A program made the position numbers and the translations under genes. Shown piece after piece: positions 14,701-39,251 of a stretch of 39,356 nt of DNA. Source of the stretch: Shigella phage SFP21B; sequence record OQ031073. One strand, given 5' to 3'. The notes below the pieces were generated by a model that saw nothing but the letters and a program-made list of their open reading frames with translations, searched no databases and was not told the DNA's origin. How positions within the stretch are numbered: position 1 is the first letter of the stretch; each line of letters begins with the position of its first letter.

Positions 14701-14748
14701 TTAGACTCAAGGTCATTACCACTATATGTAGTGGCCTTTATGATTAAC
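14701..14748 (+). other. RNase III-type processing stem-loop (R18.5-like), copy 1 of a conserved motif
   Basis: TTAGACTCAAGGTC...GGCCTTTATGATTAAC; same motif recurs at 24351 and 31403. Confidence 0.45.
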
Positions 14749-14801: not shown

Positions 14802-15251
14802 ATGCTCGAACTTTTACGTAAAGCAATCCCGTGGCTGGTTGCAGGACTCCTGTTCTGCTCTGGCTATTGGGTAGCTGATAATAAGTGGGAGGCGAAGGTA
14901 AACAATGAGTACATCACGAAACTTGAGGCACGAGAGAATCAACGGGCTGCTGTCCAAGGTGAAATCGACAAAGTGTCAGCAGAGTGGCAAGACAAGATGT
15001 CCGCGCTGGAAGGCTCTACTGATAGGATTATTGCTGACCTTAACCGCGATAACAAGCGGCTGCGCATCCGAGTCAAACCCACCAGTGGAACAGTCCAGAC
15101 TGACGGTCGATGCGTCATTGATGGTTACGCCGAACTTGACGAACGAGATGCTAAGCGTCTTATCGCCATCGGACTGAAAGGTGACGAATGGATTAAGGCC
15201 CTCCAGAAGACCGTGAGAGCCATGCAGCAAGAGAAGGAGGTGAAACCTTGA
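14802..15251 (+). CDS. 18.5: Rz-like i-spanin (gp18.5)
   Basis: start chosen at second ATG (SD GAGGAGGG 5 nt upstream); [19 protein letters not shown]-terminal TM, T7 gp18.5-like ([26 protein letters not shown]); ORF track start 14787 is an in-frame alternative. Confidence 0.85.
14905..15177 (+). CDS. 18.7: Rz1-like o-spanin (gp18.7) embedded in the +1 frame of Rz
   Basis: lipoprotein signal [16 protein letters not shown]|C (lipobox) and proline-rich mature part; T7 18.7-like N-terminus MST..; functional start may be internal. Confidence 0.7.
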   Translation: MSTSRNLRHERINGLLSKVKSTKCQQSGKTRCPRWKALLIGLLLTLTAITSGCASESNPPVEQSRLTVDASLMVTPNLTNEMLSVLSPSD

Positions 15252-17011
15252 GTCAAGACTTAGCAGCGCGTCAGGCGCTTATGACTGCCCGTATGAAGGC
15301 AGACTTCGTGTTCTTCCTGTTCGTTCTGTGGAAAGCTCTGTCACTTCCCGTTCCGACTCGCTGTCAGATTGACATGGCGAAGAAGCTATCGGCTGGGGAC
15401 AACAGGCGCTTCATCTTGCAGGCGTTCCGTGGTATCGGGAAGTCCTTCATTACGTGTGCCTTCGTGGTCTGGAAGCTATGGAATAACCCGGACTTGAAGT
15501 TCATGATTGTGTCGGCCTCAAAGGAACGAGCCGATGCGAACTCAATCTTCATCAAGCGTATCATCGACCTCATGCCTCAGCTCCAAGAGTTGAAGCCTAA
15601 GCAGGGGCAGCGAGACGCAGTAATCAGCTTTGACGTAGGACCTGCCAAGCCTGACCACTCTCCTTCGGTTAAGTCCGTTGGTATCACTGGTCAGTTAACT
15701 GGTAGCCGTGCTGACATCCTGATTGCCGATGACGTAGAGGTCCCCGGTAACTCCGCTACTCAGGCAGCACGGGACCGACTGTCAGAGCTGGTGAAAGAGT
15801 TCGACGCAATCCTGAAGCCGGGTGGTACGGTTATCTATCTGGGTACTCCTCAGACCGAGATGACCTTGTATCGACAGCTTGAAGGTCGTGGTTACTCAAC
15901 TACCATCTGGCCTGCCCGCTACCCACGTGATGAGAAGGACTGGAAGTCTTACGGCGACCGTCTGGCCCCGATGCTTCAGGCCGAGCTTGAGTCCGACCCT
16001 GAGGGCTACTACTGGCTCCCTACCGATGAGGTTCGATTCGACGATGAGGACTTGAGGGAACGTGAGCTGTCTTACGGTAAGGCTGGCTTCGCTCTCCAGT
16101 TCATGCTCAACCCGAACCTTGGTGATGCCGAGAAATACCCGCTGAAGCTGCGTGACCTTATCGTAGCGGACTTGGACCCTGAGTCAAGCCCTATGGTCTA
16201 CCAGTGGCTCCCGAACCTTCAGAACAAGCGTGAGGACGTTCCTAACGTGGGACTCATGGGTGATTCCTACCACACGTATCAGACTGTAGGTTCTGCCTTC
16301 AGTTCGTACACCCAGAAGATTCTGGTCATTGACCCCAGTGGTCGTGGTAAGGATGAGACCGGGTATGCGGTACTGTATCAGCTCAACGGCTACATCTTCG
16401 TGATGGAAGCTGGTGGTATGCGCGGTGGCTATGAGGACTCTACGCTGGAGTCTCTGGCGAAGATTGGTCGCAAGTGGAAGATTAACGAGTACGTCATTGA
16501 GGGTAACTTCGGTGATGGTATGTATCTCGAACTCTTCAAGCCTGTGGCGGCTCGTATTCACCCGGCAGCAGTAACTGAGGTCAAGAGCAAGGGTCAGAAG
16601 GAACTACGCATCTGTGACGTTCTGGAGCCTATCATGGGGTCCCACAGACTCATCGTGAACTCCTCGACCATTGTGTCTGACTACCAGACTGCCGCTGACA
16701 AGGATGGCGTCCGTAACCCTATCTACTCCCTGTTCTACCAGATGACCCGTATCAGCCGTGAACGTGGGGCCTTGGCACACGATGACCGACTTGATGCTCT
16801 GGCTATCGGTGTACAGTTCTTCGTAGAGTCTATGGCTAAGGATGCCGTTAAGGGACAGCGTGAAGTCACCGAGGAGTGGCTGGAGGAACAGATGGAAGAC
16901 CCACGGAAAGGCTTTAAGTCCATCGAGACGGACTACTGGGACAATGGGGTCCGGGTCCAGTTCAATACAGATGATGACTTGGGCTTAGGGTCCTACGTAC
17001 AGTTCCACTAG
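15248..17011 (+). CDS. 19: terminase large subunit (gp19)
   Basis: 587 aa; T7 gp19-like (CQIDMAKKL, Walker [67 protein letters not shown]); apparent TTG start with SD AAGGAGGTGA 7 nt upstream, overlapping Rz stop. Confidence 0.95.
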
Positions 17012-17103: not shown

Positions 17104-17126
17104 CTTATACCCTCACTATAGGAAAG
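17104..17126 (+). promoter_or_regulatory. phage RNAP promoter (phiOR-like), CTTATACCCTCACTATAGGAAAG
   Basis: consensus core; located between terminase and gene 19.5 as in T7. Confidence 0.8.
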
Positions 17127-17300
17127 ACCCCCGGTTACTTATAGTAAAGACTCAATGAATAATCATATGCACACTTTATGCAAGACCTTAGGAGGCAGAC
17201 TCCTGAGTTCTTACCTAAGGCTAGCACCGATGGAGAGGGTGATTGTAATCATCACACCCTCATAACTTAAGTAGACCCTAAGCGACAGGAGGTATGTAGC

Positions 17301-17459
17301 ATGGGTAAGACCAAAGCTGTTCTCAAAGCTCTGGCGACCAATAGAGCTACATACAGGTTTCTTGCTGCTGTTCTACTTGCTGCTGGCGTTACTGCTGGAA
17401 GTCAGTGGGTCGGGTGGGTCGAGACTCTCGTATGTACTCTGGTGTCTGAGTGTAATTAA
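17301..17459 (+). CDS. 19.5: gp19.5-like small protein
   Basis: 52 aa ORF not in the supplied track (<60 aa); SD AGGAGGT; resembles T7 gp19.5 as remembered (ATYRFLAAVLLAAG ... ETLVCTLVSEC). Confidence 0.65.
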   Translation: MGKTKAVLKALATNRATYRFLAAVLLAAGVTAGSQWVGWVETLVCTLVSECN

Positions 17460-17697
17460 CGCCATCATGGTAACAATCAACGAAAGACGGACCTAAGGTC
17501 AGTTCATAGCTGACGCTGCTCTACTGACCTTAGCTACTGTAGTCAAGGACTTTAGGTAACACCTTAAGAGAAGCTCACTTAGGGTCATCCTACTCACTGG
17601 TCTACCCTAGTGTCGCCTGACCTACGGTCCTTGACCTACAGTGGCTGAGGCCTACAGTAGGGACGATGAGTTTTGGACCAAAAGTTTGAGACCACAT

Positions 17698-17900
17698 CTC
17701 ACAGTTCAAGAACCTCAAGTCTCCCCCATAGGCCCTCTTTCAGTCTCGACCAAAGGCCCTACCCCTAGACCTTCGGTCTAAACCTCAAGTCTTTGACCCG
17801 AAGTCGACCCGAAGTCTGGACCGATAGGGCCTATATCTTGTGGTTGGGACGATGGGTCGGGACTATATGTTGTGTCCTTGAGTCGCTATCTGTAACAGCC
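17698..17900 (+). repeat. inferred genome terminus and terminal-repeat region (single collapsed copy); boundaries approximate
   Basis: TCTCACAGT...CCCCCATAGG at 17698 matches the start of the T7 left end as remembered; right edge near TATCTGTAACAG...CCTACAGT by analogy to T7 terminal repeat end. Confidence 0.4.
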
Positions 17901-17904
17901 TCAA

Positions 17905-18010
17905 GTCATCACCTACAGTCAACCAGCCTACAGTCAATCCCTAAGTGATGGCCTACCTACAGTCTAACAACATACAGTCAATAGACACCATGTCGACCTA
18001 CAGTTTATCA
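17905..18010 (+). repeat. array of short direct repeats (CTACAGT heptamer, at least 5 copies) adjacent to terminal repeat
   Basis: CACCTACAGTCAA, AGCCTACAGTCAA, CCTACCTACAGTCTAA, AACATACAGTCAA, CGACCTACAGTTTA; analogous to T7 CCTAAAG repeats. Confidence 0.55.
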
Positions 18011-18217
18011 GAGTCCTAAGGTCTAGACTCACAGGTTATCACATCCGGTCTCTTTAGCAGTCAGTGACCATTGCTGACTAGGGTTATTGTTGTTGGTGTC
18101 TGCCAACTGGACTCTTATTATCAATAGTCCAGACCTAAAGTCAATCATCTGTAGTCGATAATGGTCTTCCTTATATAGTCATTGGACTACTGTATAAATT
18201 AACATGATAAATAGTTG

Positions 18218-18246
18218 TTGACAGTAGGTCTAACTTTTGGTTTAAT
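18218..18246 (+). promoter_or_regulatory. host sigma70-type early promoter (A1-like)
   Basis: TTGACA -35, 17-nt spacer containing GTCTAAC as in T7 A1, -10 TTTAAT. Confidence 0.5.
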
Positions 18247-18373
18247 AGCTTCCGTCAACACGACACGGCAACAACCGGATAGTGAAGACGCCGGGTCGGT
18301 CCGGTTAAGTAGTCAGCCTGTAAGACATACGAAAAACAGGCAACCGACAGCTAGGCGACTAGCGACAAAGTAG

Positions 18374-18403
18374 TTGACAAGCAGTAACGACTTAAAGTAG
18401 TAT
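18374..18403 (+). promoter_or_regulatory. host sigma70-type early promoter (A3-like)
   Basis: TTGACA -35, 18-nt spacer, -10 TAGTAT, followed by GTACCACAT as in T7 A3. Confidence 0.5.
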
Positions 18404-18610
18404 GTACCACATCAAAACGGTGAGGCCCAACACTGAAACGGGATAGCAAGGCGACGACAGTCATTGCGAATGCTCTTTAACAATCTGGATAAACTCTTAA
18501 TGTGCGCCGATAGCGACTAACTACAGGGTCTTTGAGTCTACCGCGAGACGGGCCTGACTTGAGCGACTGAAGGCCCTGACTGATAGTCACTAACTTAAAG
18601 GATACACATC

Positions 18611-19063
18611 ATGATTTACACTAACGAACCAGCCAACGTTTTCTATGTGCTCGTGTCTGCCGCTCGTGCTAACCTGTCTGATATGGCTAACATGGCCCGT
18701 CAGTTAGACCTTAAGGCACTGCTGCAAGCAGAACCTGAATACTACGGTGTGCTCGAATGCACTGGGCTTACAGGCTGCTACCGCGAGGAGGGACAAGAGG
18801 TCGCCACTGAAGAGAGAACCTACCGTGTGCGCTGTGAGTCCAAGGCTCAAGCTATCAACGTTGCACGACTGGCCTGCAATGACTTTGAGCAAGACTGCGT
18901 GATGGTCTACAAGTCTCAGACTCACACGGCTGGCCTGATGTTCTGCAAAGGCTTGGACGGCTACAAGACCACACGTCTGAACGGGTCATTCCAGCAAGTC
19001 GATGCACCAAAGGGCGAATGCTTCACGAAAGACGCTGAAGGGCGCTTCTGGGAGGTTGTGTAA
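18611..19063 (+). CDS. 0.3: S-adenosylmethionine lyase/hydrolase (T3 gene 0.3 type anti-restriction protein)
   Basis: 150 aa; strongly resembles T3 SAMase as remembered (EPANVFYVLVSA, TGCYRE, RVRCESKAQAINVARLACN, CVMVYKSQTHTAGL); SD AAGGA. Confidence 0.88.
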   Translation: MIYTNEPANVFYVLVSAARANLSDMANMARQLDLKALLQAEPEYYGVLECTGLTGCYREEGQEVATEERTYRVRCESKAQAINVARLACNDFEQDCVMVYKSQTHTAGLMFCKGLDGYKTTRLNGSFQQVDAPKGECFTKDAEGRFWEVV

Positions 19064-19064
19064 G

Positions 19065-19268
19065 ATGGTTAACTCATACCCTAATCACATCAAGCCATGG
19101 ATAACGGTTGATATTGAGACCGTGGGCGACTCCAAGTTTGTGACCATACGGTCAAGTATACACGTTAACAAGGAGTTCAAACTTCCGCATAGCTATAGCC
19201 TGAGCTGGGGAGACTGGGAGATTCTGCGTGATGGCGCTTTCCTCAAGTACGCAAGGAGGTTCTACTGA
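19065..19268 (+). CDS. hypothetical early protein
   Basis: 68 aa from first ATG after 0.3 stop (TAAGATG); ORF track 19002 start overlaps 0.3 and is less likely. Confidence 0.45.
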   Translation: MVNSYPNHIKPWITVDIETVGDSKFVTIRSSIHVNKEFKLPHSYSLSWGDWEILRDGAFLKYARRFY

Positions 19269-19393
19269 TGTACACGATAAGCTACAGCAGCGAGCAGGCG
19301 TTCTATGATGGTCTCGTCGAGCTGATGAAGCGCGGGGCCTGCTACACGGCTAACCACCATGCGCTAACCATAACGCTGACAGGCGGGTACTGA
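19268..19393 (+). CDS. hypothetical small early protein (41 aa)
   Basis: ATG overlapping upstream stop (TGATG); translation MYTISYSSEQAFYDGLVELMKRGACYTANHHALTITLTGGY; below track cutoff. Confidence 0.3.
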   Translation: MYTISYSSEQAFYDGLVELMKRGACYTANHHALTITLTGGY

Positions 19394-19487
19394 TGGCGTA
19401 AGCCAGCTTAACGAGTGCCAGACTACAGGTCATCCATGCGGGTGGCCTGACTGATTGTCACTTAACCACAAGAAGGAAACACACGTA

Positions 19488-20222
19488 ATGAACGCACACG
19501 ATAAAGTAATCATGAATAACCTGATGTCCCAGCTTCACGCTATCATCTGTCAGGCTGACTACAAGGTGGAGTCGCTGGGGTCTGGCATAGCTGCGCAAGA
19601 CCGCTGGGGAGCCTTTGAGATACTGGCGAGGGAACATGGTTACAGGCTGTTAGGACTGGGACACTTCGCCGCTGCCTTTGAGCATGAGGACCTGCCGGGA
19701 TATGCAATCAAGGTGGGCTTCAAGAAGGATGACTCAGGCGCTGCATATGCGGCCTTCTGCCGAGAGAATGAGGGTCTGGCTGGACTACCAGTCATCCATC
19801 TGGTCAAGCGCTTCAGCAGGGCGTACATGGTGGCTATGGACAAGTACCGCTCACTAAATGACATCGGCGGGGACTACTGCCGGGACGGTGAGACCTACGA
19901 GCAACGAGTCTTAAGCGTGTCATGGCGTGTAGTCAATGCGGTGATAGACCACTGCGAGCCACCATCTGAGGCCCTGAGCTGGTGGTTGGACCAAGACGCG
20001 CGAGCTGAGTTTGCACACGTCGAGACTCAATATATTAAAGACCTTGCGCAGACTGCACGTAAGATTCACACGTTCTTCTACGGTCTGGCATCGTTCGACA
20101 CGCACCGAGCTAACGTGATGGTCGATAACAACGGGCGCTTGATAATCACAGACCCAGTGTCTTGGACTCAGGCAGACCATCAAGACGAGCTGCAAGGCAG
20201 GCTGAACGCAATAGCTGAGTGA
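19488..20222 (+). CDS. 0.7: serine/threonine protein kinase (gp0.7), kinase domain only
   Basis: T7 gp0.7 kinase-domain similarity (GHFAAAFEH, VGFKKDDSGAAYAAFCR, ITDPVS); first ATG with SD AGAAGGAAA; track start 19455 is TTG upstream in frame. Confidence 0.88.
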   Translation: MNAHDKVIMNNLMSQLHAIICQADYKVESLGSGIAAQDRWGAFEILAREHGYRLLGLGHFAAAFEHEDLPGYAIKVGFKKDDSGAAYAAFCRENEGLAGLPVIHLVKRFSRAYMVAMDKYRSLNDIGGDYCRDGETYEQRVLSVSWRVVNAVIDHCEPPSEALSWWLDQDARAEFAHVETQYIKDLAQTARKIHTFFYGLASFDTHRANVMVDNNGRLIITDPVSWTQADHQDELQGRLNAIAE

Positions 20223-20289
20223 TAGACGAGAGGCCACTACATCTAGTGGTCTCAAAGATTATTTCTCACAACATATAGGCAGGTGAGCA

Positions 20290-20484
20290 ATGGGCTGGAT
20301 ACTTCTGGTCATCGGCTACGGGTTAATACTCGCAGTCATCACGAAAGACATCGTGAAGGCACGTAAAGTCTACCGCTTCCAGTATGTATCACTGGGGCGC
20401 TGGACTGTAAGACAACCGAACGGACGATTCATGCGCAACCTCGCAAACGTCTGGGACATCGCAACCTTAGGGAGTAAACTGTAA
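20290..20484 (+). CDS. hypothetical small membrane protein
   Basis: 64 aa; N-terminal hydrophobic helix GWILLVIGYGLILAVI then basic region. Confidence 0.45.
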   Translation: MGWILLVIGYGLILAVITKDIVKARKVYRFQYVSLGRWTVRQPNGRFMRNLANVWDIATLGSKL

Positions 20485-20810
20485 TGAACAAGTCATACGG
20501 CATCAATCTGGTTCACGCACTGGACGCCGACCTTAACCTGCTTTCATCACTGGCTACAGGCTACCGACACGGGAACTCAAGTCACACCGTTCGTCAACAG
20601 CAGGAGCGCGACCGGGTACTACAAGCAAGACTCCGGGCCGAGGGCAACAAGACCGAGCTGATGTGTCTGGCCTACGGTGGACGACCACGCACTGACGATG
20701 GTAAACTTCTGGTCTCAGGCTGGAAGGCGATAGACCAGCGGTCAGGCATCAAGCACACGACACGCGGTGACTTCAGTCATCTCCACGCTAACCCACTGAT
20801 ATGCAAGTAG
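20484..20810 (+). CDS. hypothetical early protein
   Basis: 108 aa; SD GGGAGT 8 nt upstream; TAATG overlap with previous ORF; no recognised homolog. Confidence 0.5.
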   Translation: MNKSYGINLVHALDADLNLLSSLATGYRHGNSSHTVRQQQERDRVLQARLRAEGNKTELMCLAYGGRPRTDDGKLLVSGWKAIDQRSGIKHTTRGDFSHLHANPLICK

Positions 20811-20815
20811 TATTG

Positions 20816-20838
20816 ATTAAACCCTCACTATAGGACTC
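20816..20838 (+). promoter_or_regulatory. phage RNAP promoter located upstream of the RNAP gene, GATTAAACCCTCACTATAGGACT
   Basis: full consensus match 70 nt upstream of gene 1 ATG, followed by stem-loop GGTCT...AGACC. Confidence 0.75.
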
Positions 20839-20908
20839 AAGGTCTAAGACTCCAGTTTAAAGACCAAAGAGACTTTAAGTGAAAGACTAACAAACAAGGA
20901 CTTTAAGT

Positions 20909-23575
20909 ATGAGCGTCATTCAGCTTGAGAAGCACGACTTCTCGGACATCTCCAACGCAATCGAGCCATTCAACATTCTGGCTGACCACTACGGTCAGGA
21001 CCTCGCAGTAAAACAGCTTCAGCTAGAGCATGAGGCATACACTGAAGGCGAGCGTCGTTTCATTAAGAACCTTGAGCGTCAGGCTGAGCGCGGGGAGCTG
21101 GCTGATAATCAGGTCGCAAGACCATTGATGCAAACTCTGGTCCCAAAGCTGGCGCAAGCCGTCAAGGAATGGCATGAGACCCAAGGGTCAACCCGTGGGA
21201 AACCTCAGGTCGCCTTCCTGAAGCTGAGCACTGAGAACAAGCCTCGTGAGCTTCTGGTCAAGCCTGAGTCGGTGGCAGTCATCGTCCTGAAGATTGCACT
21301 TAGCAAGCTGGTCAAGCCTGAAGGCGTACCGATTACGCCGATGGCCTCCGCTATAGGCCGCACACTGGAAGATGAAATCCGCTTCGGTCGCATCCGTGAC
21401 CAAGAGCAGGAGCACTTCAAGAAGACCATAGCTGAGAACCTGAAGAAACGCGCTGGCGTGGCCTACAAGAAAGCCTACATGCAAGCGGTCGAGGCCTCCA
21501 TGCTGGACCAGAAGCAACTGGCTGATGCGTGGGGGACTTGGAGTCCTGACGAGGCAGTACACGTAGGCATCAAGATGCTTGAGCTGCTGATTCAGTCCAC
21601 ACAACTGGTTGAGCTGAAGCGTCACAACGCCGGGAACGTAGCGTCAGACGTAGAAATGGTCCACCTGTCAGACTTCTGGGCCAAGAAGATGGCTCAGCGT
21701 GGTTACAGCCTTGCGGGTATCGCTCCGGTCTACCAACCTTGTGTCGTGCCTCCACGTCCTTGGAACTCGGTGGTCGGTGGCGGGTACTGGGCTAAAGGTC
21801 GCAGACCTCTCCCGCTGATGCGCTTAGGGTCGAAGGCCGCTATCGCTCGCTACGAGGAAGTTTACATGCCTGAAGTCTACGAGGCAGTGAACATCATTCA
21901 GCAGACTCCTTGGAAGGTGAACAAGAAGGTGCTGGACGTGGTTAACATGGTCGAGAAGCTGAACAATACTCCTATCGCAGACATCCCTCAGATGGACCCG
22001 ATGAAGCCTGAAGACTACAACGGGGAGACTGAAGAGGAGCTGAAGGCGTGGAAGAAAGCTGCTGCTGGCATCTACCGCCGCGAGAAGGCCCGACAGTCCC
22101 GCCGTTTGTCTCTGAGCTTCATCGTAGGACAGGCGAACAAGTTCTCTCAGTTCAAGGCCATTTGGTTCCCGTACAACATGGACTGGCGCGGTCGCGTCTA
22201 CGCTGTCCCGATGTTCAACCCACAAGGCAACGATATGCAGAAGGGTCTGCTGACTCTGGCAGTCGGTAAGCCAATTGGTGCGGACGGCTTCAAGTGGCTG
22301 AAGGTCCACGGTGCAAACTGTGCGGGTGTCGATAAAGTCACCTTCGAGGAGCGCATCAAGTGGGTAGAAGACAACCACGACAACATCCTCGCGGCTGCTA
22401 AGAGTCCGATGGATAGTATCGACTGGTGGGGCAAGCTGGACTCTCCGTTCTGCTTCCTCGCGTTCTGCTTCGAGTATGCTGGGGTCATGCACCACGGGCT
22501 GAGCTACTCCTGCTCTCTACCTATCGCGTTCGATGGGTCCTGCTCCGGGATTCAGCACTTCAGCGCGATGCTTCGTGACCACGTTGGTGGACATGCGGTT
22601 AACCTGACGCCAAGCGGGAAGGTTCAAGACATCTACCGCATTGTGTCCGACCGTGTGGAAGAACAGCTTAAGGAACTGCTGGTCAACGGTAGCGACAACG
22701 AGGTGAAGACTTTCGAGGACAAGAAGACAGGCGAGATTACTGAACGTATGGTCCTTGGAACTCGTGAGCTGGCCCGTCAGTGGTTGACCTACGGTATGTC
22801 ACGCTCGGTCACTAAACGCTCGGTAATGACTCTGGCATACGGGTCGAAAGAGTACGGGTTCGCGGACCAAGTGTTTGAGGACACCGTGATGCCAGCGATT
22901 GACAATGGCAAGGGTGCGATGTTCACAGACCCAAGCCAAGCGTCCCGCTTCATGGCTAAGATGATTTGGGATGCAGTAAGCGTGACCGTGGTTGCTGCGG
23001 TAGACGCGATGAAGTGGCTGCAAGGTGCGGCTAAACTGCTGGCTTCTGAGGTCAAGGACAAGAAGACCAAAGAGGTCCTGAAGCCTTGCCTCCCGGTACA
23101 CTGGGTCACGCCTGATGGGTTCCCGGTCTGGCAGGAGTACCGCAAGAAGGACACCACACGTCTGGACCTGATGTTCCTCGGTACTTTCCGTCTGCAACCT
23201 ACCGTCAACAAAAGCGGGAGCAAGGAGCTGGACAAACACAAGCAGGAGTCAGGCATTAGCCCGAACTTTGTACACTCACAAGACGGCAGTCACCTGAGGA
23301 AGACTGTGGTCCACACTCACCGCAAGTATGGCGTGATGTCCTTCGCAGTGATTCACGATAGCTTCGGGACCATCCCGGCTGACGCTGAGTTCCTGTTCAA
23401 AGGTGTCCGTGAGACGATGGTCGAGACCTACCGCGACAACGATGTGCTGCAAGACTTCTACGAGCAGTTCGCGGACCAGCTTCATGAGAGTCAGCGCGAC
23501 AAGTTGCCTGAGCTTCCGAAGCGCGGTAAACTGAACATCGAAGACATTCTGTTATCTGACTTTGCATTCGCCTAA
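20909..23575 (+). CDS. 1: single-subunit DNA-directed RNA polymerase (gp1)
   Basis: 888 aa; collinear with T7 RNAP (FSDI, PFNILADHYG, PCVVPPRPW, AIWFPYNMDWRGRVYAV, DGSCSGIQHFSAMLRD, RSVTKRSVMTLAYGS, HDSFGT, SDFAFA C-terminus). Confidence 0.98.
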   Translation: MSVIQLEKHDFSDISNAIEPFNILADHYGQDLAVKQLQLEHEAYTEGERRFIKNLERQAERGELADNQVARPLMQTLVPKLAQAVKEWHETQGSTRGKPQVAFLKLSTENKPRELLVKPESVAVIVLKIALSKLVKPEGVPITPMASAIGRTLEDEIRFGRIRDQEQEHFKKTIAENLKKRAGVAYKKAYMQAVEASMLDQKQLADAWGTWSPDEAVHVGIKMLELLIQSTQLVELKRHNAGNVASDVEMVHLSDFWAKKMAQRGYSLAGIAPVYQPCVVPPRPWNSVVGGGYWAKGRRPLPLMRLGSKAAIARYEEVYMPEVYEAVNIIQQTPWKVNKKVLDVVNMVEKLNNTPIADIPQMDPMKPEDYNGETEEELKAWKKAAAGIYRREKARQSRRLSLSFIVGQANKFSQFKAIWFPYNMDWRGRVYAVPMFNPQGNDMQKGLLTLAVGKPIGADGFKWLKVHGANCAGVDKVTFEERIKWVEDNHDNILAAAKSPMDSIDWWGKLDSPFCFLAFCFEYAGVMHHGLSYSCSLPIAFDGSCSGIQHFSAMLRDHVGGHAVNLTPSGKVQDIYRIVSDRVEEQLKELLVNGSDNEVKTFEDKKTGEITERMVLGTRELARQWLTYGMSRSVTKRSVMTLAYGSKEYGFADQVFEDTVMPAIDNGKGAMFTDPSQASRFMAKMIWDAVSVTVVAAVDAMKWLQGAAKLLASEVKDKKTKEVLKPCLPVHWVTPDGFPVWQEYRKKDTTRLDLMFLGTFRLQPTVNKSGSKELDKHKQESGISPNFVHSQDGSHLRKTVVHTHRKYGVMSFAVIHDSFGTIPADAEFLFKGVRETMVETYRDNDVLQDFYEQFADQLHESQRDKLPELPKRGKLNIEDILLSDFAFA

Positions 23576-23867: not shown

Positions 23868-24332
23868 ATGTTCGGTAAGTCAAAACTTAAAGCACAAATC
23901 AAAGAGTTGAGCGTGAAGGCAGCATACTTGGAGCGAGCCGTAGCGGTCCGGGACAAGGACAACGAGCGGCTGAAGGATAAACTTGCTGAATCCGAGCGCA
24001 GACGCTTAACGCCGCCAGAGCCTGTGACTGTGAAGCGTATGGTTGGCCTGAAGTTCCGAGCGCTGTTCAATGGTCTCTACCAGCCGACTGAGTTCAAGAC
24101 CGGGCCGGGGACATGTGGCAAGACAGTGACACACTTCACCACGAGTCGGACCGAGCGCGAGCTGACCATCCACCAGCACCATACGGATGGCTCTCAGAAG
24201 GACTTCGAGTATCGACTGAGCGACATCGACGGTCGCATCCAGTACGACTACGAGCAAGTTAAGGTCTACGGCGAAGAGGCAGAACGCGAGCGAGCGCTGA
24301 GGCAGTTCGTAGTTCGACCGCGCTATGCTTAA
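23868..24332 (+). CDS. hypothetical protein with N-terminal coiled-coil-like segment
   Basis: 154 aa, clean ORF with ATG and upstream GAAGAGG; no recognised homolog. Confidence 0.55.
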   Translation: MFGKSKLKAQIKELSVKAAYLERAVAVRDKDNERLKDKLAESERRRLTPPEPVTVKRMVGLKFRALFNGLYQPTEFKTGPGTCGKTVTHFTTSRTERELTIHQHHTDGSQKDFEYRLSDIDGRIQYDYEQVKVYGEEAERERALRQFVVRPRYA

Positions 24333-24350
24333 ACCCTCACTATAGGATTA
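24328..24350 (+). promoter_or_regulatory. phage RNAP promoter (phi1.1-like), GCTTAAACCCTCACTATAGGATT
   Basis: consensus match. Confidence 0.85.
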
Positions 24351-24394
24351 GACTCAAGGTCATGACTCAAAGTCGTGGCCTTCATGATTAACCC
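24351..24394 (+). other. RNase III-type processing stem-loop (R1.1-like), copy 2
   Basis: GACTCAAGGTCATGACTCAAAGTCGTGGCCTTCATGATTAACCC. Confidence 0.45.
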
Positions 24395-24604: not shown

Positions 24605-24868
24605 ATGGGCCGACTTTATAGTGGCAACCTCAACGCTTTCAGAGCAGCGTGTAACAGACTTTATCAGTTAGACTTCTGCGTGATACAGCAGGACTGGTAC
24701 GAGGCGCATCTTCGGAAAGAGTGCATGAGACTTCAAGTCGAGGACCGAGCCGGTAACATCTTCGCGCTTGAGACCTTCGCACACTACGACGAAGACGTAC
24801 TGTATAATACTGCAACCACATTCCTTAACGGTCTCGCTGACCAACTCGACACATGGAGAAAAATATAA
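24605..24868 (+). CDS. 1.2: gp1.2-like protein (host dGTPase inhibitor family)
   Basis: 87 aa; MGRLYSGNL..., YDEDVL resemble T7 gp1.2. Confidence 0.85.
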   Translation: MGRLYSGNLNAFRAACNRLYQLDFCVIQQDWYEAHLRKECMRLQVEDRAGNIFALETFAHYDEDVLYNTATTFLNGLADQLDTWRKI

Positions 24869-25944
24869 TGACAACTATCAAAACCAATCCACATCGCGCT
24901 GTAGATTACTCTGAGTCCGGCGTTAAGAAAGCACTGGACGCAGCCGGGTCGCTGGAAGCTGAAGTGAAGTACGACGGTGTGCGTCTCAACATCCCGGTCC
25001 TTCGTGAAGGTGAGACCTACTGGCTGAGCCGTGAGTCGAAACCTCTGCCAGCCTTGGAGTGGATGAACTCTGAGTTAGGAAATGCTTGGACCCAAGCTGA
25101 CTGGCGTTGGTTCCTGCGTCAAGCTGGCTACGAAGGTGTGGGCCTGATGATTGACGGCGAGGTCATGGTCAAAGGCGTGGACTTCAACACCTCCTCAGGT
25201 CTCATCCGAACGAAGTGGCTGAAGCCTAACAACGAGGCGTTCGCTGAATGCTATCCGGGCCGTGGCAAGAAGGTCCCGTTCTGGGTCGCCCGGTCCCGAC
25301 TTCAGGTTGTGGTCTACGGTGTCGTCGACATGACGACCATAGCCGACCCGAAAGCCGAAGGTCCTATCCATAGCGTCACCCGCCTGAAAGCCGAAGCTAT
25401 CGTCCCTCTCCTCCAGAAATACTTCCCTGAAATCGACTGGGTTCTGTCTGAGTCACACACGGTCTTTGACCTTGAGTCGCTCAACTCCCTCTACGAAGAG
25501 AAGCGTCTGGAAGGACACGAGGGTCTGGTAGTCAAGGACCCACTGGGCAAATACAAGCGTGGAAAGAAGTCAGGCATGTGGAAGATGAAGCCTGAAGACA
25601 CCATCGACGGGACCGTATGTGGCCTCGTGTGGGGAACTCCGGGAAAGGCCAACGAAGGCAAGGTCATCGGCTTTGAGGTACTCTTGGAGGATGGCATGGT
25701 GGTCAACGCCTGCGGTCTGACTGAAGAACAGAAGGGCGAGTTCACAGCTAAAGTCGCTGAATCTAGCGGTTATACCTTGTCTGGCGGCCCTGTGGTTATT
25801 CAGGATGGGACCGAGAAGACCAACCCCTACCACGGCTGGCAGTGTGAAGTCCTCTTCATGGAGCGGTTCCCTGACGGCTCCCTTCGTCATCCTAGCTTCA
25901 AGTGCTGGCGTGGAACCGAAGACAACCCAACGGTGAAGTCATGA
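24868..25944 (+). CDS. 1.3: ATP-dependent DNA ligase (gp1.3)
   Basis: T7 ligase-like (IKTNP, adenylation motif EVKYDGVR, YWLSR, MIDGEVMVKGVDFNTSSGLIRTKW, EGHEGLVVKDP, YKRGKKSGMWKMKPE, DGSLRHPSF); start at ATG 24868 (TAATG overlap), in-frame alternative 24853. Confidence 0.95.
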   Translation: MTTIKTNPHRAVDYSESGVKKALDAAGSLEAEVKYDGVRLNIPVLREGETYWLSRESKPLPALEWMNSELGNAWTQADWRWFLRQAGYEGVGLMIDGEVMVKGVDFNTSSGLIRTKWLKPNNEAFAECYPGRGKKVPFWVARSRLQVVVYGVVDMTTIADPKAEGPIHSVTRLKAEAIVPLLQKYFPEIDWVLSESHTVFDLESLNSLYEEKRLEGHEGLVVKDPLGKYKRGKKSGMWKMKPEDTIDGTVCGLVWGTPGKANEGKVIGFEVLLEDGMVVNACGLTEEQKGEFTAKVAESSGYTLSGGPVVIQDGTEKTNPYHGWQCEVLFMERFPDGSLRHPSFKCWRGTEDNPTVKS

Positions 25945-26123: not shown

Positions 26124-26158
26124 CAACCCAGTGGTCTTCTGACTGCTGGGTTTCTTTG
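26124..26158 (+). terminator. rho-independent terminator (early terminator TE-like)
   Basis: stem ACCCAGTGG/CTGCTGGGT followed by TTCTTTG; located after the ligase region where T7 has TE. Confidence 0.6.
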
Positions 26159-31456: not shown

Positions 31457-33628
31457 ATGATTGACTTACAGAACATCTGGGGTTCGGACATTGAGACCAA
31501 CGGTCTTCTTGATACCGTCTCTCAGTTCCACTGTGGGGTCCTGATTAACGCCGAGTCGAATGAGACCCTGAAGTATGGGGTAGCTCCGATGGTAGGTATC
31601 GTCGGTGGCTTCAAAGAGTATGTGCAGAAGGTCGAAGAGATTGCAGCCACACCGCATGGGCTTCTGGTCTTCCACAACGGGATTAACTACGACGTCCCGG
31701 CTATTGACATTCTGAAGCGTAAGTATTTCGGCAAACGTTTCAACTTCCCGAAACACAAGATGATTGACACGCTGGTCATGGGCCGATTGATGTGCCCGAA
31801 CATTAAGTTCTCGGACATCGGGGCCGTGAAAGCTGGTCGTCTTCCGCCGAAGATGATGGGCCGACAGTCGCTTGAAGCGTGGGGCTATCGTCTCGGTGAG
31901 ATGAAGGGTGAGTATAAGACGGACTACATTGCCAAGTGCAAGGCTGACGGTATCGAATATAAGGCCGGGGACGAGTGGTTGTTCCCAAGCCAAGAGATGC
32001 TGGACTATAACGTCCAAGACGTTGTGGTCACTCTGGCCCTGTTCAAGAAGTTCCTGACCGATAAGTTCTACTTTGGGTCCCCTGAAGCAGGACTTGAGGC
32101 TGTTTACGCATTGCGTCTCGAACACGATGCTGCATGGACCTGTGCGAAGATGGAACGTAACGGCTACCCGATGAACTCGGAGATAGTCGAAGGCTTGTAT
32201 CGTGAGCTGTCTGTCAAACGTGCTGAGCTTCTGGATAAGCTGAGGTCGACGTTCGGTAGCTGGTATTCACCGAAAGGTGGCAAGGAGTTCTTCAGGCACC
32301 CACGAACCGGGGCAGACCTGCCGAAATACCCGCGAGTCATCTACCCAAAGGTAGGGGCAATCTTCAAGAAGCCGAAGAACAAAGCTCAGCGCTTAGGTCT
32401 GGAGCCTTGCGAACGAGACTCACGAGATACGATGGAAGGCGCACCGTTCACACCGATTACCTTCGTTGAGTTCAATCCGGGGAGTGGCGACCACTTAGCT
32501 AAGGTTCTGATGGACCGTGGCTGGGAGCCTACTGAGTTCACGGATACAGGGAAGCCTAAGTGTGATGACGAAGTGCTGGAGAACGTACATCTGGCTGACC
32601 CTGAGGCACAGGCTTGCGTAGAGCTGGTCCGTGAGTATCTGGTGGTACAGAAGCGCATTGGTCAGGCGGCTGAAGGTAAGAACGCATGGCTGCGACTGGT
32701 GGGTCCTGACGGAAGGATGCACGGGTCGATTAACCCTTGTGGTGCTGTAACCGGACGTGCGACCCATAGTTCACCGAACATGGCTCAGGTCCCGGCTAAC
32801 GGTGCTCCTTGGGGTGAAATCTGCCGTAGTGCTTTCGGTGCTCAGTGGAACAAGAACTACGGCAAGGACGAACCGTGGATTCAAGTTGGGGTCGATGCCT
32901 CAGGCCTTGAACTCCGTTGTCTGGGGAACCGTGCGTCCCCGTTCGATGGTGGTGAATATGCGAAGACTGTGGTCGAGGGAGACATCCACTGGGCTAATGC
33001 GGTCAACGCCGGGTTAGCACCTAACGTCCCACGCGACAAGTCTAACCACGACCACGATGCTTTCCGTAACAACGCCAAGACGTTCATCTATGCGTTCCTT
33101 TATGGTGCAGGGGCCTCGAAGATTGGGCTGATAGTTGGCGGTGGTAAGAAGGAAGGTTCCGCCCTGATGAAGAAATTCATTGAGGGTACACCAGCTATCA
33201 AGGACCTGCGAGAGGCGGTGCAGAACACGCTCATCTCCGAGTCCAAGTGGGTAGACGGTGAGAACATCGTGAAGTGGAAACGCCGCTGGCTTAAAGGTCT
33301 GGACGGTAGACGCATCCACATCCGGTCTCCGCACTCAGCACTTAACGCCTTACTTCAGGGCGATGGTGCGGTAGTATGTAAGCACTGGATTGTCGAGACT
33401 GAACGTATGCTCGAAGATGCCGGGTATGTCCACGGCTGGGAAGGAGACTTTGCGTACATGGCATGGGTCCACGACGAATTGCAGATTGCGTGTCGTACTC
33501 AGGAGATTGCCGAAGAAGTCGTCAAGATTGCTCAACTTGCTATGCGCAAGGTGGGTGAGTTCTATAACTTTAAATGTGTCCTTGATACCGAAGGTAAGAT
33601 TGGACCAACGTGGAAGGAGTGTCACTAA
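31457..33628 (+). CDS. 5: DNA polymerase (gp5), family A with 3'-5' exonuclease
   Basis: 723 aa; T7 gp5-like (exo motif DIETNGLL, FHCGV, LVFHNGINYDVPA, LEAWGYRLGEMKGEYK, YNVQDVVVT, GAVTGRATHS, DASGLELRC, KTFIYAFLYGAG, FAYMAWVHDE). Confidence 0.97.
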   Translation: MIDLQNIWGSDIETNGLLDTVSQFHCGVLINAESNETLKYGVAPMVGIVGGFKEYVQKVEEIAATPHGLLVFHNGINYDVPAIDILKRKYFGKRFNFPKHKMIDTLVMGRLMCPNIKFSDIGAVKAGRLPPKMMGRQSLEAWGYRLGEMKGEYKTDYIAKCKADGIEYKAGDEWLFPSQEMLDYNVQDVVVTLALFKKFLTDKFYFGSPEAGLEAVYALRLEHDAAWTCAKMERNGYPMNSEIVEGLYRELSVKRAELLDKLRSTFGSWYSPKGGKEFFRHPRTGADLPKYPRVIYPKVGAIFKKPKNKAQRLGLEPCERDSRDTMEGAPFTPITFVEFNPGSGDHLAKVLMDRGWEPTEFTDTGKPKCDDEVLENVHLADPEAQACVELVREYLVVQKRIGQAAEGKNAWLRLVGPDGRMHGSINPCGAVTGRATHSSPNMAQVPANGAPWGEICRSAFGAQWNKNYGKDEPWIQVGVDASGLELRCLGNRASPFDGGEYAKTVVEGDIHWANAVNAGLAPNVPRDKSNHDHDAFRNNAKTFIYAFLYGAGASKIGLIVGGGKKEGSALMKKFIEGTPAIKDLREAVQNTLISESKWVDGENIVKWKRRWLKGLDGRRIHIRSPHSALNALLQGDGAVVCKHWIVETERMLEDAGYVHGWEGDFAYMAWVHDELQIACRTQEIAEEVVKIAQLAMRKVGEFYNFKCVLDTEGKIGPTWKECH

Positions 33629-38345: not shown

Positions 38346-39230
38346 ATGTCCCAATCAGTTTATGCCGAGTTCGGCGTTAGTCCTAATGCAATCACTGGTT
38401 CCGTTGAGGACCTGAACGAACACCAACAGTCTATGCTGGAGAAGGACGTAGCTGTCCGTGATGGCGATGATGCCATTACCTTCAAGCAACTGGAAGCCGA
38501 GCAACAGGAAGAGGCGACCGAAGAAGGCGAGAACGTCGAAGAGGCTGAAGGCGAAGAAACCGAAGGCAACGACGATGAGTCCGATACCGAAGGCGATGAC
38601 CAAGAGTTCGTTGAGCTGGGCGAAACCCCGAAAGAGCTGACCGAAAGTGTAACCGCTCTTGACGAGAATGAAGCTGCGTTCGACGACATGGTGTCTGCTG
38701 CTGTAGAAGCTGGTAAGGTCACTGCTGATGACATAACCACTATCAAGGCTGAGTACGCCTCTAAAGGTGAACTGTCCGAGGCATCCTACGCTAAGCTGGC
38801 TGAAGCTGGATACACCAAGCGTTTCGTCGATTCGTTCGTCCGTGGTCAGGAAGCTCTGGCTGAGCAGTATGCTGCGGGTGTGGTTCGCTACGCTGGTGGT
38901 GCTGAGCAGTTCAACCGCATCCTGTCTCACCTTGAGTCCAACGATAAGTCAACCAAGGAAGCCCTTGAGTCTGCAATCATCCGTAAGGACCTTGCGACCG
39001 CTAAGGCCATCCTGAATCTGGCTGGTCGTAACCTCGGCAAGACCCGTGGCGTTGCACCTCAGCGCACCCTGACGACCCAAGGTAAGCCAGCAGTCGCTGC
39101 ACCGAAGGTCCAGACCGAAGGCTTCAGCTCCAAGGCTGACATGATTAAGGCCATGAGCGACCCGCGCTATCTGCGTGATGCTGCTTACACCAACTCTGTC
39201 CGCACGAAGGTTGCTGCTTCCAACTTCTAA
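38346..39230 (+). CDS. 9: capsid assembly (scaffolding) protein (gp9)
   Basis: 294 aa; T7 gp9-like (VYAEFGV, ARDGDDAI, acidic middle, SYAKLAEAGYTKRFVDSFVRGQEAL, DLATAKAILNLAG, MIKAMSDPRY, SNF end). Confidence 0.93.
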   Translation: MSQSVYAEFGVSPNAITGSVEDLNEHQQSMLEKDVAVRDGDDAITFKQLEAEQQEEATEEGENVEEAEGEETEGNDDESDTEGDDQEFVELGETPKELTESVTALDENEAAFDDMVSAAVEAGKVTADDITTIKAEYASKGELSEASYAKLAEAGYTKRFVDSFVRGQEALAEQYAAGVVRYAGGAEQFNRILSHLESNDKSTKEALESAIIRKDLATAKAILNLAGRNLGKTRGVAPQRTLTTQGKPAVAAPKVQTEGFSSKADMIKAMSDPRYLRDAAYTNSVRTKVAASNF

Positions 39231-39251
39231 TATACCCTCACTATAGGGAGA
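39229..39251 (+). promoter_or_regulatory. phage RNAP promoter (phi10-like, strongest consensus), AATATACCCTCACTATAGGGAGA
   Basis: only site with full ...TATAGGGAGA initiation region; its leader runs to the window end and joins the capsid ATG at position 1. Confidence 0.9.

What the first reader, a model, noticed from the sequence alone, without database searches (positions are those of the whole stretch)
20816..20908. Phage-RNAP promoter directly upstream of the RNAP gene
A full consensus promoter (GATTAAACCCTCACTATAGGACT) lies 70 nt upstream of the gene 1 ATG, followed by a stem-loop. In T7 as I recall it, gene 1 is transcribed only by host RNAP and the first phage promoter lies downstream of gene 1. 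A promoter here would give the polymerase positive feedback on its own gene and a host-independent route into the middle genes.
Basis: partly seen in the sequence, partly recalled or inferred. Interest (0 to 1): 0.55.

Follow-up and report, generated by a model that had tools for sequence, protein, structure and literature searches.

The report
Phage promoter before its own polymerase gene
A perfect copy of this T7-like phage's own promoter sits 76 bases before its RNA polymerase gene, probably letting the polymerase boost its own synthesis, but every relative in the genus (K1F-like phages) has it and public records of two relatives already annotate it, so it is real but ordinary.

Summary
ATTAAACCCTCACTATAGGACTC (20816-20838, +1 G at 20833) is a perfect match to the window's own 12-copy promoter consensus and lies in the 98-nt gap before gene 1 (RNAP, 20909-23575). 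The window is a permuted, complete Kayfunavirus (K1F-like) genome, closest to Cronobacter phage GW1.

The site is not peculiar to this genome.
- All 22 Kayfunavirus-tier IMG/VR loci, K1F, EcoDS1, CR44b and EcpYZU01 have a promoter at about -70 to -102 from gene 1.
- 220 of 221 INPHARED records that match the interval carry at least 80% of it.
- The site follows each genome's own promoter class (three classes), and those classes match differences in the RNAP specificity loop. This argues for use by the cognate polymerase.
- None of about 60 T7-, T3- and K11-type loci has a promoter within 400 nt of gene 1. Most have a phiOL-like site upstream, about 2.2-3.4 kb away in most.

The orthologous site is already annotated in EcoDS1 ("promoter phi") and CR44b. 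The positive-feedback idea has been proposed for LUZ100, with a mapped transcription start, and for phiA318.

The "stem-loop" is weak and shows no covariation. Verdict: a real, probably functional class II-type promoter that makes a natural RNAP autogene. It is already known. Interest is low.

The parts
20816..20838 (+). Phage-RNAP promoter, -17..+6 (ATTAAACCCTCACTATAGGACTC); predicted +1 G at 20833
   Evidence: Perfect 17/17 core match. 33.3 bits under a matrix built from the other 11 sites. Orthologous to the annotated 'promoter phi' of EcoDS1 at 2244-2266.
20833..20908 (+). 76-nt leader of the predicted transcript, 37% G+C. Begins with GACTCAAGGTC, the motif that heads RNase III-like hairpins elsewhere in the genome.
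   Evidence: The motif is exact at 14704, 20834, 24351 and 31404.
20836..20871 (+). Weak interrupted hairpin (CUC..GGUCU...AGACC...GAG); possibly a degenerate counterpart of the T7 R1 RNase III site
   Evidence: MFE z = -0.23 and -0.74. Four conserved pairs and no covariation. T7/T3/K11-type loci have a strong hairpin at the same place.
20896..20900 (+). Shine-Dalgarno AAGGA, 8 nt before the gene 1 ATG
   Evidence: The SD..ATG block has 0.955 mean pairwise identity across the genus.
20909..23575 (+). Gene 1, single-subunit RNA polymerase (888 aa). Specificity-loop residues are R/D/R/Q at T7 positions 746/748/756/758, as in the T3-type locus.
   Evidence: 99% identical to GW1-type loci L015 and L023.
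20484..20810 (+). Upstream 108-aa early ORF of unknown function (gp0.38-like); its stop codon is 5 nt before promoter position -17
   Evidence: PHROG 7066. Annotated as hypothetical in GW1.
24329..24351 (+). Next phage promoter downstream (+1 at 24345), about 770 nt after the gene 1 stop, followed by a strong RNase III-like hairpin
26125..26152 (+). TE-like intrinsic terminator after the ligase gene; the first terminator-like site downstream of the gene 1 promoter on the + strand
   Evidence: EcoDS1 annotates TE at the equivalent place.
17105..17127 (+). phiOR-type promoter (+1 at 17121) after the terminase gene. It is the only other phage promoter between gene 19 and gene 1, so there is no phiOL equivalent.
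   Evidence: EcoDS1 annotates phiOR at 38500 and no phiOL.

Best explanation
The site is a functional class II-type promoter for the phage's own single-subunit RNA polymerase, conserved throughout the genus Kayfunavirus.

Inferred sequence of events:
1. Host RNA polymerase transcribes the early region, gene 1 included, from sigma-70 promoters near the left end.
2. Once some phage polymerase exists, it initiates at G20833 and reads through the 76-nt leader and gene 1. It continues into genes 1.1-1.3, up to or past the TE terminator at 26125.
3. Gene 1 therefore becomes a natural 'autogene'. Polymerase synthesis is amplified and can continue after host RNA polymerase is shut off by the gp0.7-like kinase and gp2.
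4. The loop is presumably held in check by the gp3.5 lysozyme-type inhibitor, as in T7.

Shown here:
- the sequence match
- its position and orientation
- the absence of an intervening terminator
- genus-wide conservation
- co-variation with promoter class and RNAP specificity loop

Inferred, not shown: initiation in vivo, promoter strength, and how much of gene 1 mRNA comes from it.
For: - Match to the genome's own consensus: perfect core match, 12 sites against 0.06 expected. The site scores 33.3 bits under the matrix built from the other 11 promoters, within their range of 22.9-35.1.
- Conservation in IMG/VR and named phages: 22 of 22 Kayfunavirus-tier loci, plus K1F, have a promoter matching their own consensus with +1 at -75 to -102 from the gene 1 ATG. 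EcoDS1, CR44b and the divergent EcpYZU01 have it too.
- Conservation in INPHARED: 220 of 221 matching records carry at least 80% of the interval.
- Three promoter classes, and the site follows the class. The consensus core is AACCCTCACTATAGG in the window/GW1 class, AACTATCACTATAGG in the K1F class and AAGGTACACTATAGG in L016. The gene 1 site always belongs to its genome's class and scores 9-45 bits lower under the other classes.
- The classes match the RNAP specificity loop. The residues are R/D/R/Q (as in the T3-type locus) in the window, R/N/N/Q in K1F and R/K/Q/R in L016.
- The promoter is better conserved than its surroundings. The core -7..+3 has 0.954 mean pairwise identity, against 0.70 for the 5' spacer and 0.79 for the leader. 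Positions -12..-8 are invariant within the K1F class.
- There is no terminator-like site between 20833 and 26125 on the + strand.
- Other annotators reached the same call: EcoDS1 'promoter phi' 2244-2266 and CR44b 'predicted promoter' 1814-1836.
- There is an experimental precedent of the same kind. The phage-specific promoter phi1 directly upstream of the LUZ100 RNAP gene has a transcription start mapped by ONT-cappable-seq, and positive feedback was proposed for it (PMC10134795).
Against: - No transcript, primer-extension or in vitro data for this site, or for any Kayfunavirus, were found in the searchable literature.
- Five relatives (L004, L005, L006, L018, L019) have A instead of T at -2 at this site only. 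That could mean reduced strength.
- Conservation shows selection on the sequence, not which downstream function is selected. That could be gene 1 expression, replication priming or DNA entry.
- An unchecked T7-type autogene is known to be toxic in cloning experiments (my own knowledge: Dubendorff and Studier 1991). Activity in vivo may therefore be modest or tightly limited.
Confidence: 0.8

Rival explanations
1. The promoter is kept mainly for a DNA-level role, with gene 1 autoregulation as a side effect. Kayfunaviruses lack phiOL, so this is the leftmost phage promoter. It could serve as a transcription-activated replication origin, like T7 phi1.1A/B or phiOL with their A+T-rich regions. It could also be the first point where the fast phage polymerase takes over pulling the genome into the cell.
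For: - There is no phiOL-type site in K1F or in the window between phiOR and gene 1, and EcoDS1 annotates none.
- T7/T3/K11-type loci have phiOL plus a promoter immediately after gene 1 (+2677/+2748). In Kayfunavirus the next promoter is 330-790 nt beyond gene 1.
- The leader is A+T-rich: 37% G+C against 53% for the genome.
Against: - Leaders of the other promoters are similarly A+T-rich, at 37-52%.
- There are no GGGTC, TGGTC or GTGTC primase-type sites on the + strand of the leader, and only one on the complement (GACCA at 20862).
- By the time the polymerase exists, this DNA is already inside the cell.
- A DNA-level role does not exclude feedback, because any initiation here necessarily transcribes gene 1.
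Confidence: 0.12
2. The site binds the polymerase but is weak or silent in vivo. It could be occluded by host-RNAP read-through, attenuated by the leader, or poorly productive because of the GGACTC start. In that case it adds little to gene 1 expression and persists mainly by descent.
For: - There are no activity data.
- One sub-clade has A at -2 at this site only.
- The +1..+6 sequence is GGACTC rather than the GGGAGA of the capsid-gene promoter at 39246.
Against: - The specificity positions changed together with all the other promoters in three separate classes. That is hard to explain without selection for recognition by the cognate enzyme.
- 8 of the 12 promoters in the window start with GGA.
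- The core is more conserved than its flanks.
Confidence: 0.07
3. The site is a chance match or an assembly artefact.
For: None found.
Against: 0.06 matches are expected against 12 observed. The same site is present at the same place in independent genomes from many laboratories.
Confidence: 0.01

Closest known systems
Annotated gene 1-proximal phage promoters of other Kayfunavirus genomes: EcoDS1 NC_011042 'promoter phi' 2244-2266, CR44b NC_023576 'predicted promoter' 1814-1836, and the unannotated K1F site at 2475-2497
   Same: Orthologous position: the promoter starts a few bases after the upstream ORF and its +1 lies 75-76 nt before the gene 1 ATG. Same leader (GGACTCAAGGTCTAAGACT...AAGGACTTTAAGTATG) and same orientation.
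   Different: Those phages use the K1F-class specificity region (AACTATCACTATAGG). The window uses the GW1 class (AACCCTCACTATAGG), which has T3-like -11/-10 bases, with a matching T3-like specificity loop in the RNAP.
LUZ100 phi1 (a temperate-like T7-like Pseudomonas phage), PMC10134795
   Same: A phage-specific promoter directly upstream of the RNAP gene. A positive feedback loop primed by host-RNAP read-through was proposed for it.
   Different: - LUZ100 phi1 has an experimentally mapped transcription start.
- It is proposed to be repressed by a MarR-like regulator in a lysogeny switch.
- No integrase- or MarR-annotated gene appears among the early-region ORFs examined (GW1 annotation; PHROG matches).
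- The two phages are only distantly related.
Vibrio phage phiA318 promoter phi-A8, PMC4099482
   Same: A predicted phage promoter upstream of the kinase and RNAP genes, interpreted as autoregulation.
   Different: It lies upstream of the kinase gene as well, it is only predicted, and it belongs to a different lineage with a different consensus.
T7 phiOL (nt 405) and the minor E. coli promoter C (nt 3113)
   Same: phiOL is a phage promoter upstream of gene 1 that could in principle transcribe it. Promoter C occupies the same 0.7-to-gene 1 interval, 58 nt before the gene 1 ATG.
   Different: phiOL is 2.8 kb upstream, next to the left end and ahead of the host promoters. Promoter C is a host-RNAP promoter. 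T7, T3 and K11-type loci have no phage promoter within 400 nt of gene 1.
Engineered T7 autogene (T7 promoter driving T7 gene 1; my own knowledge, Dubendorff and Studier 1991; the term is used in papers listed)
   Same: The same circuit logic: the polymerase gene is placed under its cognate promoter.
   Different: The autogene is artificial and needs lac repression or lysozyme to be tolerated. Here the arrangement is natural and sits within a lytic programme that kills the cell anyway.

Membership tests
T7-group (Studiervirinae) single-subunit phage RNAP promoter | A roughly 23-bp element (-17..+6) matching a consensus repeated about 10-17 times on the coding strand of the same genome | tested here: met
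   12 sites against 0.06 expected, and this one is a perfect 17/17 match. It scores 33.3 bits under the matrix built from the other 11 sites.
T7-group (Studiervirinae) single-subunit phage RNAP promoter | Intergenic or at a gene's end, co-oriented with the genes, ahead of a gene with its own ribosome-binding site | tested here: met
   It lies in the 98-nt gap 20811-20908 on the + strand. AAGGA sits 8 nt before the ATG.
T7-group (Studiervirinae) single-subunit phage RNAP promoter | Positions -12..-8 match the specificity of the RNAP encoded in the same genome | tested here: met
   The window has ACCCT at -12..-8 together with loop residues R/D/R/Q, the same as the T3-type locus L082, whose consensus is AATTAACCCTCACTAAAGGGAGA. 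K1F and L016 differ in both promoter and loop. The residue-to-base rule itself comes from the T7/T3 literature, not from a test here.
T7-group (Studiervirinae) single-subunit phage RNAP promoter | Conserved at the same map position in related genomes | tested here: met
   22 of 22 Kayfunavirus-tier loci, plus K1F, EcoDS1, CR44b and EcpYZU01. 220 of 221 INPHARED records carry the interval.
T7-group (Studiervirinae) single-subunit phage RNAP promoter | Initiation by the cognate RNAP at the +1 G | not testable with these tools
   This needs in vitro run-off transcription or 5'-end mapping. No such data were found.
Natural RNAP autogene / positive-feedback promoter (LUZ100 phi1 type) | A phage-specific promoter directly upstream of the RNAP gene with no terminator in between | tested here: met
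   +1 is 76 nt before the ATG. The first + strand terminator-like site is at 26125.
Natural RNAP autogene / positive-feedback promoter (LUZ100 phi1 type) | Host-RNAP promoters further upstream that prime the loop | tested here: inconclusive
   Sigma-70-like sites lie at 17631-17658 and 18374-18403, but the count in the region is not above the shuffled expectation (7 against 6.7). EcoDS1 annotates three host promoters at the equivalent place.
Natural RNAP autogene / positive-feedback promoter (LUZ100 phi1 type) | A repressor (MarR-like) gating the promoter | tested here: not met
   The early-region ORFs examined match a SAM-hydrolase-like protein, a kinase and unknowns. No MarR or integrase was seen, so the regulatory context differs from LUZ100.
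T7-type RNase III processing site (R1 upstream of gene 1) | A stable hairpin with an internal loop between gene 0.7 and gene 1, conserved with compensatory changes | tested here: inconclusive
   The site shares the GACTCAAGGTC 5' arm with three strong hairpins at 14704, 24351 and 31404 (z = -1.9 to -3.8). Its own hairpin is weak (z = -0.74) and shows no covariation. T7/T3/K11-type loci have strong hairpins there.
T7 phiOL | A phage promoter within a few hundred bp of the left end, upstream of the host early promoters | tested here: not met
   The site is 76 nt from gene 1 and downstream of all other early genes. The K1F copy is at nt 2491 of a genome with defined ends.

The most novel reading that the evidence does not exclude
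Kayfunaviruses may have replaced the T7 arrangement (phiOL at the left end, gene 1 made essentially from host transcripts) with a dedicated autogene.
- The leftmost phage promoter sits directly on gene 1, so polymerase dosage would be set by a positive-feedback loop rather than by the host-RNAP time window.
- This promoter has had to co-switch with the enzyme each time specificity changed. That has happened at least twice within the genus, giving three classes.

If so, the genus would be a natural system for two questions. One is how a self-driving polymerase-promoter pair changes specificity without losing itself. The other is how a lytic phage tolerates an autogene.
Probability: 0.3. Interest if true: 0.45.

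Novelty: already known. Interest (0 to 1): 0.2.

Why it matters
For this window it matters little. It is an orthologue of a promoter already annotated in EcoDS1 and CR44b. The autoregulation idea is already in print for other T7-like phages.

Its modest value is comparative.
- It marks a clean, genus-wide difference in early-gene wiring between K1F-like phages and T7/T3/K11-like phages.
- It gives a natural example of a polymerase gene under its cognate promoter.
- The three promoter classes within one genus, each with a matching RNAP specificity loop and a matching gene 1 promoter, could be useful for orthogonal RNAP-promoter engineering.

Annotation pipelines for Kayfunavirus genomes, GW1 for example, could add this promoter.

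Tried and rejected
- Reading the K1F genome paper (PMC1317022) and Chen and Schneider 2005 (PMC1275584) to see whether the site was discussed. Neither is held, so I cannot say what they state.
- Literature searches for activity or transcription-start data on K1F-like phages found nothing relevant. The Sparklingdew paper lists eight promoter-like repeats, one at the 3' end of the gene numbered just before the RNAP gene (SPD_007 before SPD_008), without comment.
- Treating the leader as a conserved structured RNA gave nothing:
  - MFE z = -0.23 and -0.74.
  - RNAalifold found 4 pairs and no covariation.
  - Rfam had no match anywhere in the window.
- A first seed regex for promoter discovery failed on 8 loci with unusual cores. 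A k-mer-seeded matrix recovered phage-promoter consensi for six of them (L024, L025, L037, L039, L043, L080), and none has a site near gene 1.
- L030, L032 and L038 gave no usable promoter model. L030 and L032 gave only spurious k-mers, and L038 returned a tandem repeat. Those three are uninformative.
- The replication-origin reading got no specific support. The A+T content of the leader is like that of other leaders, and there are essentially no primase-type sites.
- A search of viral contigs for the promoter-leader junction returned essentially the contigs already in hand.

Full report
**What the window is**

All long ORFs are on the + strand and follow T7 gene order, circularly permuted:
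- capsid gene at position 1
- terminase at 15248-17011
- early genes from about 18600
- RNA polymerase at 20909-23575
- ligase at 24853-25944
- DNA polymerase at 31457-33628

Megablast of 20300-21300 hits 218 phage records. The best is Cronobacter phage GW1 (genus Kayfunavirus, the K1F-like phages) at 96.5% identity. PHROG scans confirm the RNAP (PHROG 414, E=0). They also confirm a gp0.7-type kinase at 19455-20222 and two small early ORFs of unknown function just upstream.

**The observation**

The quoted sequence is at 20815-20837.
- In T7 numbering the promoter (-17..+6) is 20816-20838, ATTAAACCCTCACTATAGGACTC, with +1 G at 20833.
- That is 76 nt before the gene 1 ATG and 5 nt after the stop codon of the upstream ORF.
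- The 17-mer core occurs 12 times on the + strand at up to 3 mismatches, against 0.06 expected. Six copies, this one included, are perfect.
- The other eleven lie where EcoDS1 annotates phi promoters or just ahead of a gene. These are phiOR, the site before gene 1.1, phi1.6, phi2.5, the sites before genes 4 and 5, phi6.5, phi9, phi10, phi13 and phi17.
- With the site itself left out, a matrix from the other eleven scores it at 33.3 bits. The others, each left out in turn, score 22.9-35.1.

**The stem-loop**

The predicted structure of the leader is a 3+5 bp interrupted hairpin at 20836-20871.
- It is no more stable than shuffled sequence (z = -0.23 for the whole leader and -0.74 for the hairpin region).
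- Across twelve relatives only four pairs are shared, with no compensatory change.
- Rfam finds nothing in the window.

The leader does begin with GACTCAAGGTC. That motif occurs exactly at three other places (14704, 24351, 31404). There it forms the 5' arm of strong hairpins of the form ...GGTC(N)GGCCTTTATGATTA (z = -1.9 to -3.8). From my own knowledge of T7, these look like T7-type RNase III sites. T7-, T3- and K11-type relatives have a strong hairpin in the interval before gene 1. That hairpin corresponds to T7 R1, again from my own knowledge. The structure here may therefore be a degenerate R1 counterpart, but this is not established.

**Relatives**

A protein-guided scan of IMG/VR with the RNAP returned 80 loci in three tiers. 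For each locus I derived the phage's own promoter matrix de novo and located the sites relative to gene 1.

| Group | Result |
|---|---|
| Kayfunavirus tier (22 loci, RNAP at least 79% identical) and K1F | Every one has a promoter matching its own consensus, with +1 at -75 to -102 from the ATG |
| T7-type, T3-type and K11/KP32-type loci, plus six loci with other consensi recovered | None has a promoter within 400 nt upstream of gene 1. Most have a phiOL-like site, about 2.2-3.4 kb upstream in most, and their next promoter follows gene 1 directly (+2677/+2748) |

Three further loci (L030, L032, L038) gave no usable promoter model and say nothing either way.

The T7 reference record agrees. It has phiOL at 405, phi1.1A at 5848 and, in the 0.7-to-gene 1 gap, only the minor E. 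coli promoter C at 3113. In INPHARED, 220 of the 221 records that match 20800-20915 carry at least 80% of it. The most divergent hit, EcpYZU01, still has GATTAAACCCTCACTGTAGGAC in place, while the flanks have diverged.

**Evidence that the site is used**

Kayfunavirus genomes fall into three promoter classes.

| Class | Members | Consensus core (-13 to +2) | RNAP specificity-loop residues (T7 positions 746/748/756/758) |
|---|---|---|---|
| GW1 class | window, GW1, L015 | AACCCTCACTATAGG | R/D/R/Q, as in the T3-type locus L082 |
| K1F class | 19 loci | AACTATCACTATAGG | R/N/N/Q |
| L016 class | L016 | AAGGTACACTATAGG | R/K/Q/R |

- In every genome the gene 1 site belongs to that genome's class. 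It scores 9-45 bits lower under the other classes' matrices.
- The classes match the RNAP specificity-loop residues. T7 itself has R/N/R/Q.
- The core -7..+3 has 0.954 mean pairwise identity. The 5-nt spacer has 0.70 and the leader 0.79.
- Positions -12..-8 are invariant within the K1F class and differ between classes.

A site that switches specificity together with the enzyme and all the other promoters is under selection for recognition by that enzyme. Which downstream consequence is selected is an inference.

**Mechanism**

There is no terminator-like site on the + strand between 20833 and the TE-like terminator at 26125-26152. Any initiation at 20833 therefore transcribes gene 1.

The first polymerase must come from host-RNAP transcripts.
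- EcoDS1 annotates three host promoters at the left end.
- In the window, sigma-70-like sites at 17631 and 18374 are candidates, but the count is not above chance.

After that the enzyme can amplify its own mRNA. This is the logic of the engineered T7 autogene and of the loop proposed for LUZ100 phi1, which has a mapped transcription start (PMC10134795). Autoregulation was also proposed for phiA318 (PMC4099482). Restraint by the gp3.5 lysozyme is inferred from T7 biology.

K1F, EcoDS1 and the window have no phiOL-type site. This promoter is therefore the leftmost phage promoter on the mature genome. That leaves room for a DNA-level role in replication priming or genome entry. I found no specific support for it.

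**Comparison with what is known, and novelty**

- The orthologous site is annotated as 'promoter phi' in the EcoDS1 record (2244-2266; gene 1 starts at 2336) and as 'predicted promoter' in CR44b (1814-1836).
- A 2026 Kayfunavirus paper lists a promoter repeat at the 3' end of the gene numbered just before the RNAP gene.
It does not hold for 'the first phage promoter lies downstream of gene 1', because phiOL precedes gene 1.
- The K1F genome paper and Chen and Schneider 2005 could not be read.

I rate the finding as already known. It is real, probably functional, a genus-wide trait and of low surprise. The residual interest lies in the natural autogene wiring and in the within-genus specificity switches.

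Noticed in passing
window 20909-23575 (RNAP; specificity loop at about residues 740-780, N-terminal A+T-rich recognition loop at about residues 90-105): The window's RNAP is 88-92% identical to K1F-type enzymes. Its specificity-loop residues are T3-like (R/D/R/Q against K1F R/N/N/Q), and its A+T-rich recognition loop lacks a 2-aa insertion. All 12 promoters have the T3-like ACCCT at -12..-8. This is a promoter-specificity switch within one genus, and L016 shows a third class.
   Followed up: partly
window 14704, 24351, 31404 (also 20834 and 39263): GACTCAAGGTC heads strong hairpins ending in GGCCTTTATGATTA (z = -1.9 to -3.8). They look like T7-type RNase III sites, and two of them directly follow phage promoters. 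The copy after the gene 1 promoter has only a weak hairpin.
   Followed up: partly
window 17121-20833; L003 (K1F) 1-2491; L084 (EcoDS1) 1-2266: Kayfunavirus genomes have no phiOL-type promoter near the left end. The gene 1-proximal promoter is the leftmost phage promoter, and the next one lies 330-790 nt beyond gene 1 instead of directly after it as in T7/T3/K11 types.
   Followed up: partly
L004, L005, L006, L018, L019, at -81 from gene 1: One sub-clade has A at -2 (CACTAAAGG) at the gene 1 promoter only, while its other promoters keep T. It also has a different, longer leader.
   Followed up: no
L109 (T7 NC_001604) 3113: The T7 reference record places the minor E. coli promoter C 58 nt before gene 1. 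The same interval thus carries a host-polymerase promoter in T7 and a phage-polymerase promoter in Kayfunavirus.
   Followed up: no
L038 186-429: Eleven tandem 21-bp repeats (GGAACCACTGAGTATCATTRA) lie about 1.3-1.5 kb upstream of gene 1 in a T7-relative contig.
   Followed up: no
INPHARED records OR786095 (Staphylococcus phage MBBL139), PQ520054 (Enterococcus phage IME_EF3), PV615262 (Acinetobacter phage vB_Aba_01KA): Records with non-enterobacterial host labels match the Kayfunavirus gene 1 upstream region at 78-86% identity. The host labels look doubtful.
   Followed up: no
L037 at about -640 and -1590 from gene 1; L043 at about -980: Some T3-like and other relatives have phage promoters within 1-1.6 kb upstream of gene 1. 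Phage-RNAP transcription into gene 1 may therefore be possible in more lineages than T7 suggests.
   Followed up: no
window 18611-19063: The gene at the 0.3 position matches a family that GW1 annotates as S-adenosyl-L-methionine hydrolase (T3-like), not the Ocr of T7, K1F and EcoDS1. PHROG labels the family 'SAM-dependent methyltransferase'.
   Followed up: no
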